DNA of 64,000 bases, from the NCBI GenBank assembly GCA_951406725.2, contig OX597816.1, forward strand, positions 101,618,001 to 101,682,000. Direction: 5' to 3'. Source of the stretch: Octopus vulgaris (lineage: Eukaryota). A model generated the notes under the pieces. The model had not been told where the DNA came from. It made no database searches and saw nothing but the letters and a program-made list of their open reading frames with translations. The position numbers and the translations under genes are program-made. Below are positions 53,226 through 54,407 of the stretch, piece by piece. Every line of letters begins with the position of its first letter. Positions within the stretch are counted from its first letter, which is position 1.

Positions 53226-53524
53226 CTGATATACTGAAAAGTTTGTCGGGCTGTAATAAACTTGGTGTACACAATTAAAATATGCATCTGTGTACCATAC
53301 ATAACTTATATACACTCGTGAGTCACTGATGAGACGATGTTTGCCTCACTCCCATATATACTGCGTTTTCTACACAGCATGTCTAGGAAGAGCTTTTCTC
53401 TTAGCCAAAAACACGTCATCATGTCTTTCAATGGTATGGTACACAGACGGCTATTTTAAGTTAATACTGTTTCAGATGCGTACATCGGATTTATCACAGC
53501 CCGACAAACTTTCCGCAATATCAG
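53226..53524. mobile_element. Inverted-repeat element (MITE-like)
   Basis: CTGATAT...AAAGTTTGTCGGGCTGT...TCTGTGTACCATAC is inverted at 53433-53524. Confidence 0.7.
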
Positions 53525-53790
53525 TGACTGAGTTGTTTATTGCTTTCAATATATCGGAGAGCATAAATTCCACATAGACATGTAAGAAGCGAGTTCATAT
53601 TCTTGGCAAGGTCCAAGAAGGCCGAAACGTATCTAGTGTCCTCGTGAATCACTGCAAATGTTTGCCTCGCGCTGATATATATAGCGTTTTTAACACACGT
53701 CTATAAAGTGATTTCCTTCAGACAAAAAACACAGAAGCATATTTTCGGTGATCTATATACGTTAAGCAGAGTGCACAGATGGCTACTTTA

Positions 53791-54000
53791 TGGCGTACTC
53801 CTGTAATCTAGCTACTCAGAGATTTCTTTGGTTGGTTGTCAGCTTTGAGGATGGAGTCCTGATGGTCGATTTTCTATGGTGACCGGGTGTCTGCGCTAAG
53901 TTCGGTAGACAAAATACCCCGAGTCGAGCTGTAGTGCGATCGCACCTGTGAACAGTCGTCAGCTAGCAGCCTGTTCAATACAACTGAACTCCAACCTCTT
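53791..54000 (+). pseudogene. 7SL (SRP RNA)-derived sequence, ~11 nt 5'-truncated, lacking helices 6-8
   Basis: Four colinear 7SL blocks (compared with human 7SL from memory): TGGCG..CCTGTAATCTAGCTACTC; CTATGGTGACCGGGTGTCTGCGCTAAGTTCGG; GTAGTGCGATCGCACCTGTGAACAG; CAGCCTG..CAATACA..CTCTT. Confidence 0.85.
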
Positions 54001-54003
54001 CAT

Positions 54004-54407
54004 AGGCGCAGGTGTGGCTGTGTGGGAAGAAGTTGGCTTCCTAGCCACATGATTCCGGGTTCAGTCCCATTGCGTAGCACCTTGAGCAAGTGTCTTCTGC
54101 TATAGCCCCGTGCCCATCAAAGTCTTTTGATAAGCGGAAACTGAAAGAAGCCCCATCCCCATATATATGTGTATATGTGTGTATGTATCTGTCTATCTAT
54201 CAATCAATCTATCTATTTATAAGTGTGTGCATGTGCTTGTGTTTGTGCTTGTGCTTCTCTACGTTGCCTACGTCGACCGATTTGGCAAAAGAGACCGATA
54301 AAACAACTGTCAGGTTTTAAAATCGAAGTACTGGGGGGTCGATTCGCTCGACTACAGTCCTTCAAACTGGTGCCCCAGCGTGGCCATGATCAACTGACTG
54401 AAACAAT
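54004..54407 (+). mobile_element. SINE family A
   Basis: GGCGCAGGTGTGGCTGTGTGG head through GACTGAAACAA tail. Confidence 0.9.

What the first reader, a model, noticed from the sequence alone, without database searches (positions are those of the whole stretch)
53791..54000. 7SL-derived sequence with an Alu-like internal deletion in a probable cephalopod
Seen: four colinear blocks matching SRP RNA. The block ending CTAAGTTCGG joins almost directly (via TAGACAAAATACCCCG) to the 3' strand, so roughly 80 nt covering helices 6-8 are missing. The ends still look complementary (AGAG..TTGGTTG with CAA..CAACCTCT) using non-human bases, which argues against human contamination. Known: helices 6 and 8 bind SRP19/SRP54, the Alu domain binds SRP9/14, and loss of the S domain is how Alu/B1 arose; 7SL-derived SINEs are described from very few lineages. 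Inference: either a one-off deleted 7SL pseudogene or a member of an independent invertebrate 7SL-derived SINE or truncated-SRP family. No poly-A tail or TSD is visible, which favours the first.
Basis: partly seen in the sequence, partly recalled or inferred. Interest (0 to 1): 0.75.

Follow-up and report, generated by a model that had tools for sequence, protein, structure and literature searches.

The report
Dead 7SL copy fused to SINE
This is a single decayed copy of the signal-recognition-particle (7SL) RNA that lacks 81 central bases and runs straight into an unrelated jumping element, likely because a retrotransposon enzyme switched templates while copying, as it likely did for most scattered 7SL and U6 copies in this probably-octopus genome; it has not spread as an Alu-like family.

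Summary
Window 53788-53999 is 7SL (Rfam RF00017, E 4e-17), 84% identical to the genome's own intact genes, with one 81-nt deletion (nt 123-203, 3-nt microhomology) that removes helices 6, 7 and most of 8. The 'linker' is itself 7SL nt 205-220. Six runs from six studies carry the same junction, two of them about 6% diverged, so it is real and old. It is unique: none of 67 other 7SL-like loci has it, and only 45 and 53 places match 7SL end motifs genome-wide. The copy is 12% decayed, CpG-biased, and lacks the upstream flank, an intact A box and the T-run. Likewise 39 of 54 dispersed 7SL loci and 30 of 37 non-array U6 loci are followed within 25 nt, on the same strand, by a SINE or a LINE 3' tail (background 1.4%; 0 of 14 genes). 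These are likely template-switch chimeras made by a tail-recognising LINE, as described for U6 in platypus and lizard. Six literature searches listed no such report for cephalopods.

The parts
53788..53904 (+). 7SL RNA nt 9-122: Alu 5' domain (first about 8 nt lost, A box damaged, 4-nt insertion near nt 42) and the 5' strand of helix 5
53905..53907 (+). deletion junction: 3-nt microhomology shared by 7SL nt 123-125 and 204-206; 81 nt missing (helix 6, helix 7, 5' strand and loop of helix 8)
53908..53999 (+). 7SL RNA nt 207-298: end of helix 8, 3' strand of helix 5 and Alu 3' strand; longest T-run at the end is 2 (genes 5-12)
54000..54002 (+). 3-nt junction between the 7SL 3' end and the SINE 5' end
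   Evidence: bridged by contigs in 3 of 4 runs
54003..54406 (+). full-length SINE of a very abundant family (5' half, central microsatellite, 3' half); 15% diverged in its 5' half; head is tRNA-like by recall only (ARAGORN finds none)
   Evidence: depth
54368..54387 (+). decayed 3' stem-loop of the SINE, the same motif that ends an endonuclease/reverse-transcriptase LINE of this genome

Best explanation
It is a single-copy, decayed 7SL pseudogene with a private 81-nt deletion, joined head-to-tail to a full-length SINE, and the pair was likely inserted in one event when a LINE reverse transcriptase finished copying the SINE RNA and jumped onto the 3' end of a 7SL RNA. Shown: the anatomy, the uniqueness of the deletion, the decay, and the same RNA-then-SINE or RNA-then-LINE-tail layout at most dispersed 7SL and U6 loci. 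Inferred: the LINE starts only on RNAs that carry its 3' stem-loop, so 7SL and U6 get copied mainly as passengers; the enzyme stopped about 8 nt short of the 7SL 5' end; the S domain was lost by a microhomology-guided slip, either a skip during reverse transcription or a later DNA deletion, before the split from relatives about 6% diverged. It likely does nothing: no upstream gene flank, a damaged A box and no terminator mean it would not be made as a separate RNA, and the SINE's own internal promoter would start downstream of the 7SL part, so the chimera would not spread.
For: Junction 71-mer: 1 match, itself. Junction pattern with 1 mismatch: 4 matches against 5 in the reversed control, the 3 others without 7SL context. 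0 of 67 other 7SL-like loci share the deletion (51). 7SL 5' and 3' motifs with up to 2 mismatches: 45 and 53 places in 2.8 Gb. Decay: 25 of 204 positions off the source alleles (12.3%) against 0-1% in the 14 gene copies; 14 of 25 changes are C>T or G>A, 6 at CpG; 6 of 16 CpGs hit against 16 of 167 other sites. Upstream 16 of 40 identical to the gene flank (dispersed copies 6-22, genes 33-39, one rearranged array copy 13); T-run 2. 7 of the other 37 first-set dispersed copies have their own deletions of 5-39 nt, the largest (L007, 39 nt in helix 8) also with 3-nt microhomology. Chimera pattern: sense element within 25 nt downstream in 32 of 38 dispersed 7SL copies, antisense 0 of 38, genes 0 of 14, U6 30 of 37, background 1.4% of 155,732 flank positions; held-out set 7 of 16 sense, 1 antisense. 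Short tails are LINE 3' ends: 16 of 25 sampled copies run into an RT ORF element. Divergence of the two halves agrees here (12.3% and 15.3%) and across 8 loci (rho 0.81, p 0.015). Precedent: U6-L2 and U6-SINE chimeras in platypus and lizard (PMC4476161, passages).
Against: Both tests for constraint lean, without significance, towards conservation: 5 pair-breaking changes of 23 against 8.1 +/- 2.3 simulated (P 0.14), and 12-15 differences in 212 nt against 35 in 387 flank nt in run X13 (p 0.16-0.44; counts read). The predicted fold still forms a long helix-5 rod. No TSD encloses the pair, here or convincingly in the 34 other chimeras scanned, so a single insertion is not proven for this locus. 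The age correlation is rho 0.40, p 0.29 when L029 is kept (9 loci); I dropped it because its flanks show a young 7SL sitting inside an old SINE, which also shows that adjacency can arise otherwise. The held-out rate (7 of 16) is lower than the first-set rate. The repeat library was built from flanks of these same loci (leave-one-out; background used the same library). A 3-nt microhomology occurs at 6% of random breakpoint pairs, so it is weak evidence. Template switch and RNA ligation are not separated by these data.
Confidence: 0.85

Rival explanations
1. Two separate events: an older tailless or DNA-level 7SL copy, with a SINE inserted next to it later.
For: No TSD encloses both parts. L029 shows a 7SL and a SINE of very different ages side by side. 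SINEs are very dense in this genome (depth).
Against: Chance of a sense element starting within 25 nt is 1.4%; observed 39 of 54 sense against 1 of 54 antisense. The SINE here begins at its own 5' end, 3 nt from the RNA's 3' end, and is of similar divergence. No gene flank survives on either side.
Confidence: 0.07
2. A conserved S-domain-less SRP-like RNA (Alu domain plus helix 5) that is transcribed, binds SRP9/14 and acts on ribosomes, as primate scAlu or BC200 do (recalled).
For: Kept in relatives about 6% diverged; fewer pair-breaking changes than simulated (5 against 8.1, P 0.14); slightly lower divergence than flanks; the 5' breakpoint sits at the end of helix 5.
Against: 5' end truncated with the A box damaged and helix 3/4 changes, no gene flank, no terminator; CpG-biased decay like 12 other old copies; both lineages went on changing it after their split; neither constraint test is significant.
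Confidence: 0.05
3. A member of a 7SL-derived SINE (SINE1) family.
For: Layout resembles hagfish SINE1-1_EBu: S-domain-deleted 7SL head in front of a LINE-recognised tail (PMC7245038).
Against: One copy; at most about 50 places per 7SL end motif genome-wide; junction lengths, partners and tails differ from locus to locus. Hagfish family: 2363 full-length copies with TSDs.
Confidence: 0.02

Closest known systems
U6/LINE and U6/SINE chimeric retrocopies of stringent LINEs: U6-L2 and U6-Mon-1 in platypus, U6-AnolisSINE2 in Anolis (Doucet et al. 2015, PMC4476161; passages seen)
   Same: Small Pol III RNA at the 5' side, LINE 3' end or SINE at the 3' side, same strand, no poly-A, short or no TSD; chimeras make up most dispersed copies (platypus 40 of 47 analysed).
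   Different: Invertebrate host; passenger here is 7SL as well as U6; partner LINE is an endonuclease/RT element whose clade was not fixed by a tool (CR1-like by recalled motif); most 7SL passengers are near full length; this copy has an internal deletion.
Human 7SL/LINE-1 chimeric insertions (PMC11838501; passages seen)
   Same: 7SL joined to a retroelement in one insertion.
   Different: Rare in human (each newly found RNA type at most 21 loci) and made by relaxed L1; here chimeras are the main form of dispersed 7SL.
SINE1-1_EBu of hagfish (Kojima 2020, PMC7245038; parts 1-3 of 4 read)
   Same: 7SL head without S domain, fused to a tail shared with tRNA SINEs and recognised by a non-L1 LINE; the paper's birth model starts from a 7SL/SINE chimera.
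   Different: 2363 uniform copies with about 17-bp TSDs, intact A and B boxes, compensatory changes and a FRAM-sized deletion; here one decayed copy, an 81-nt deletion that keeps all of helix 5, and a whole SINE rather than a tail.
Alu monomers FAM/FLAM/FRAM and B1 (SINE1 of Euarchontoglires)
   Same: Loss of the S domain with both Alu-domain ends kept.
   Different: They share only 7SL nt 1-63, 76-83 and 267-299 (PMC7245038), end in poly-A and use L1; this copy keeps nt 9-122 and 204-298 and never amplified.
Metazoan SRP RNA (Rfam RF00017)
   Same: Source; 84% identical to the host's genes, which lie in a 13-copy array at G000:C5:143.067-143.116 Mb.
   Different: Lacks helices 6-8 (SRP19/SRP54 sites, established knowledge), upstream flank and terminator.

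Membership tests
7SL-derived sequence (RF00017) | significant covariance-model match and colinearity with the host gene | tested here: met
   E 4.4e-17; 175 of 208 identical
functional SRP RNA gene | helices 6 and 8 intact | tested here: not met
   nt 123-203 absent
functional SRP RNA gene | conserved upstream flank and oligo-T terminator | tested here: not met
   16 of 40 upstream identity, T-run of 2
SINE1 (7SL-derived SINE) | many dispersed copies with the same internal structure | tested here: not met
   junction unique; 0 of 67 other loci
SINE1 (7SL-derived SINE) | loss of the S domain with Alu-domain ends kept | tested here: met
   but the first about 8 nt are lost
SINE1 (7SL-derived SINE) | intact internal A and B boxes | tested here: not met
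   nt 1-8 missing and nt 11 changed in the A-box region; one change and a 1-nt gap near the B box (box positions from PMC7245038)
SINE1 (7SL-derived SINE) | 3' end usable by a LINE (poly-A or LINE tail) | tested here: met
   only through the attached SINE's stem-loop tail
SINE1 (7SL-derived SINE) | compensatory conservation of the Alu fold | tested here: inconclusive
   5 breaks against 8.1 expected, P 0.14
small-RNA/retroelement chimeric retrocopy | RNA copy without gene flanks joined directly, same strand, 5' of a LINE or SINE | tested here: met
   3-nt junction; no gene flank
small-RNA/retroelement chimeric retrocopy | TSD enclosing both parts | tested here: inconclusive
   best repeat 6 nt, in simple sequence; none convincing in 35 loci scanned; L2-type chimeras have TSDs of only 1-9 bp
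small-RNA/retroelement chimeric retrocopy | both parts of the same age | tested here: met
   12.3% and 15.3%; rho 0.81 over 8 loci, 0.40 over 9
small-RNA/retroelement chimeric retrocopy | empty site in an outgroup lacks both parts | not testable with these tools
   no relative genomes held; the most distant runs laid still carry the insertion

The most novel reading that the evidence does not exclude
The octopus genome is a nursery for 7SL-headed SINEs caught before amplification: its stringent LINE keeps welding 7SL RNA, including S-domain-less forms (this copy; young 5'-half pieces ending at nt 93-120 in L172, L173, L175, L176), onto the very stem-loop tail it needs, and the 81-nt gap here arose in the same reverse-transcription event by a second jump to a 7SL piece broken at the helix-5/S-domain boundary. 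That would be the single-copy first step of the hagfish SINE1 birth model, and one of the young tail-only chimeras may already have made a few daughter copies.
Probability: 0.15. Interest if true: 0.6.

Novelty: new member of a known kind. Interest (0 to 1): 0.3.

Why it matters
The locus itself is a dead pseudogene. Three modest points follow. (1) An S-domain deletion alone does not mark a 7SL-derived SINE: the hagfish paper uses the deletion to exclude a chimeric retrocopy, and this single-copy chimera has one. (2) The rule seen for U6 in platypus and lizard, that stringent LINEs copy small RNAs mainly as chimeras, appears to hold in a mollusc and for 7SL; about 70 such loci give a set for testing template switch against RNA ligation, since 7SL and U6 have different 3' ends (recalled). 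(3) Repeat annotation can mistake these chimeras for SINE families: the O. vulgaris annotation lists small 'U' and 'U-L1' SINE classes (PMC13282606 Table 1, passage; whether these are such chimeras was not checked).

Tried and rejected
Human contamination: rejected (host-gene identity; six runs). Assembly artefact: rejected (same calls). SINE1 family: rejected. Expression: no RNA holder listed, and the one guessed-RNA run laid has no cover of the 7SL part; neither is evidence. Folding z-scores are uninformative: -0.77 for this copy, -1.20 for the intact gene. The unconstrained fold used is not the SRP fold, so its pair classes were discarded and redone with domain constraints. TSD scan gave nothing convincing. 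ARAGORN finds no tRNA in the SINE head. The LINE clade was not named by any tool. No Rfam hit at gathering level in the window; 14 stop-to-stop ORFs of 150 aa or more were listed and not followed, none overlapping the locus, so an intronic position is untested. Earlier findings: none by sequence or by the full word set. Literature searches listed no paper on 7SL or U6 chimeras in cephalopods; only listings were seen for most hits, the library lacks most subscription papers, and supplements of PMC13282606 and PMC7245038 were not read. L185 (25-nt match) may be chance and L184 is ambiguous; both were left in the held-out count of 16.

Full report
Observation. Rfam RF00017 matches window 53785-53999 (+) at 69.9 bits, E 4.4e-17, just under the gathering score, with the S domain missing. 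The genome holds intact 7SL genes: 13 copies in an array at C5:143.067-143.116 Mb and one more with the same upstream flank. Against one of them the window copy is 175 of 208 identical, lacks about 8 nt at the 5' end, and has one 81-nt gap, nt 123-203, which can slide over a 3-nt microhomology. On the Rfam structure the gap runs from the end of the 5' strand of helix 5 into the 3' side of helix 8.

The junction is real and old. One contig with no gap crosses it in each of 4 runs from 4 studies (0-2 differences per piece) and in 2 of 4 further runs, which differ from the window at 22 of 356 and 22 of 322 positions; the other two runs do not cover it.

It is not a family. The 71-nt junction stretch matches only itself. 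A degenerate junction pattern gives 4 matches against 5 in the control, and the 3 others have no 7SL context. Because the DNA search skips very common words, I also counted 7SL end motifs by pattern: 45 places for the 5' motif and 53 for the 3' motif at up to 2 mismatches. I examined 68 7SL-like loci (52; 16); none of the other 67 has this deletion. The first look had 94 candidates, so some old copies were not seen. Internal deletions are ordinary among these copies: 7 of the other 37 first-set dispersed copies carry deletions of 5-39 nt.

It looks dead. 25 of 204 positions differ from the alleles seen in young copies, against 0-1% in genes; 14 of 25 are C>T or G>A, like the spectrum of 12 other old copies; 6 of 16 CpGs are hit against 16 of 167 other sites. 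The upstream flank of the genes is absent (16 of 40) and the T-run is 2. Against this reading: pair-breaking changes are fewer than simulated (5 against 8.1 +/- 2.3, P 0.14), and divergence from run X13 is 12-15 of 212 inside against 35 of 387 outside (p 0.16-0.44). Neither is significant, and both tests are weak. With the clock quoted in PMC13282606 (distance 0.12 at 33 million years; passage) the insertion would be roughly 30 million years old; this is an inference and CpG decay inflates it.

What lies beside it. A full-length SINE starts at 54003, 3 nt after the 7SL end, and ends at 54406. This is the rule here. With a leave-one-out library of downstream elements, 32 of 38 dispersed 7SL copies have an element starting within 25 nt downstream on the same strand, 0 of 38 on the other strand, 0 of 14 genes; the background is 1.4% and 1.3% of 155,732 flank positions. 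By eye L007 is a further case and L029 is a false one. A held-out set of 16 older or partial loci gave 7 sense and 1 antisense. For U6, 42 of the 48 loci were examined: 5 form a gene array, and 30 of the other 37 have the same layout, 0 antisense. Partners differ: whole SINEs of several families, SINE 3' parts, and tails of about 50-70 nt. Two tail types were traced. One has 1002 exact copies; 16 of 25 sampled run upstream into an element with an RT ORF whose relatives are about 1000-aa endonuclease/RT proteins, and 9 of 25 stop just 5' of the terminal stem-loop. The other has 151 exact copies; 3 of 20 align upstream with each other as LINE sequence, 1 has a short piece, and 16 are tail-only. 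LINE tails and the SINE tail share the stem-loop. Chimeras with short tails join at that same stopping point.

Mechanism. The best reading is target-primed reverse transcription by a stringent LINE that starts on the stem-loop tail, reaches the 5' end of its template (a whole SINE, or a short tail piece), and jumps to the 3' end of an abundant Pol III RNA. This step is inferred. It fits the strand bias, the lack of gene flanks, the lack of poly-A, the tandem re-copying of 5' ends at several junctions, and the matching ages of the two halves: 12.3% and 15.3% here; rho 0.81 (p 0.015) over 8 loci without L029, rho 0.40 (p 0.29) with it. No TSD was found; stringent-LINE chimeras in platypus have only 1-9 bp. 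RNA ligation before copying, described for human U6/L1 (passage), is not excluded; a 7SL 3'-OH end and a SINE 5'-triphosphate would not suit it (recalled). Whether the 81-nt gap arose during copying or later cannot be told: it predates the split seen. Four 5'-half chimeras end at nt 93, about 107, 118 and 120, near the left breakpoint (122-125), but other 3'-truncated copies end at 38, 170, 191, 213 and 223, so the clustering is weak.

Comparison and novelty. The closest known kind is the U6/LINE and U6/SINE chimera of genomes with stringent LINEs (PMC4476161, passages); rare 7SL/L1 chimeras are reported in human (PMC11838501, passages). The layout resembles hagfish SINE1-1_EBu, whose birth model starts from a 7SL/SINE chimera (PMC7245038, parts 1-3 of 4), but the defining feature, many uniform copies, was tested and not met. 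PMC4758252 (passages) discusses template switching in mollusc SINEs and cites an Octopus CORE SINE, OR2; I did not test whether the partner here is that family. PMC13282606 has no occurrence of '7SL', 'snRNA' or 'chimer' in its main text; supplements were not read. Six searches listed no report of such chimeras in cephalopods. Earlier scan notes report true 7SL-headed families in other invertebrate genomes (unchecked), which would make this single copy less special.

Verdict. Observation confirmed; single decayed 7SL/SINE chimeric retrocopy with a private deletion (0.85); new member of a known kind; interest 0.3, most of it from the genome-wide chimera pattern rather than from the deletion.

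Noticed in passing
L073-L102, L111-L122 (U6 loci): 30 of 37 non-array U6 copies run directly into a SINE or LINE tail on the same strand; partners from several families; 5-copy U6 gene array at G000:C1:139.42 Mb.
   Followed up: yes
L127-L171: Tail-only insertions of two related LINEs are very common (9 of 25 and 16 of 20) and stop within a few bases 5' of the terminal stem-loop, as if a protected 3' piece served as template.
   Followed up: partly
L172, L173, L175, L176, L107: Young chimeras of a 7SL 5' part (ending at nt 120, 118, about 107, 93, 213) joined to a LINE tail or SINE; each has its own junction.
   Followed up: partly
L046 (G000:C5:124.16 Mb), L066 (G000:C5:141.68 Mb): A second 7SL variant with several linked changes near the 3' end; these two copies have T-rich ends and no attached element and may be the source genes of many dispersed copies.
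   Followed up: no
G000:C5:143.067-143.116 Mb: Array of 13 near-identical 7SL genes at spacings of about 3-5 kb.
   Followed up: partly
L007, L093, L068, L104, L106, L119: Short tandem re-copies of the SINE 5' end or of the small RNA's 5' end at chimera junctions, a sign of repeated slipping by the reverse transcriptase.
   Followed up: no
L029: Young 7SL copy (2% diverged) that appears to sit inside an old SINE (19%), with an A-rich 3' junction.
   Followed up: partly
L027, L058: Two 7SL copies interrupted by later insertions of 249 and 228 nt at about the same place in helix 6; L063 has an inverted partial 7SL copy upstream.
   Followed up: no
window 53226-53524: Element with 55-nt inverted arms, MITE-like; the neighbouring 53510-53708 is skipped in run X13 and partly in X12.
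   Followed up: no
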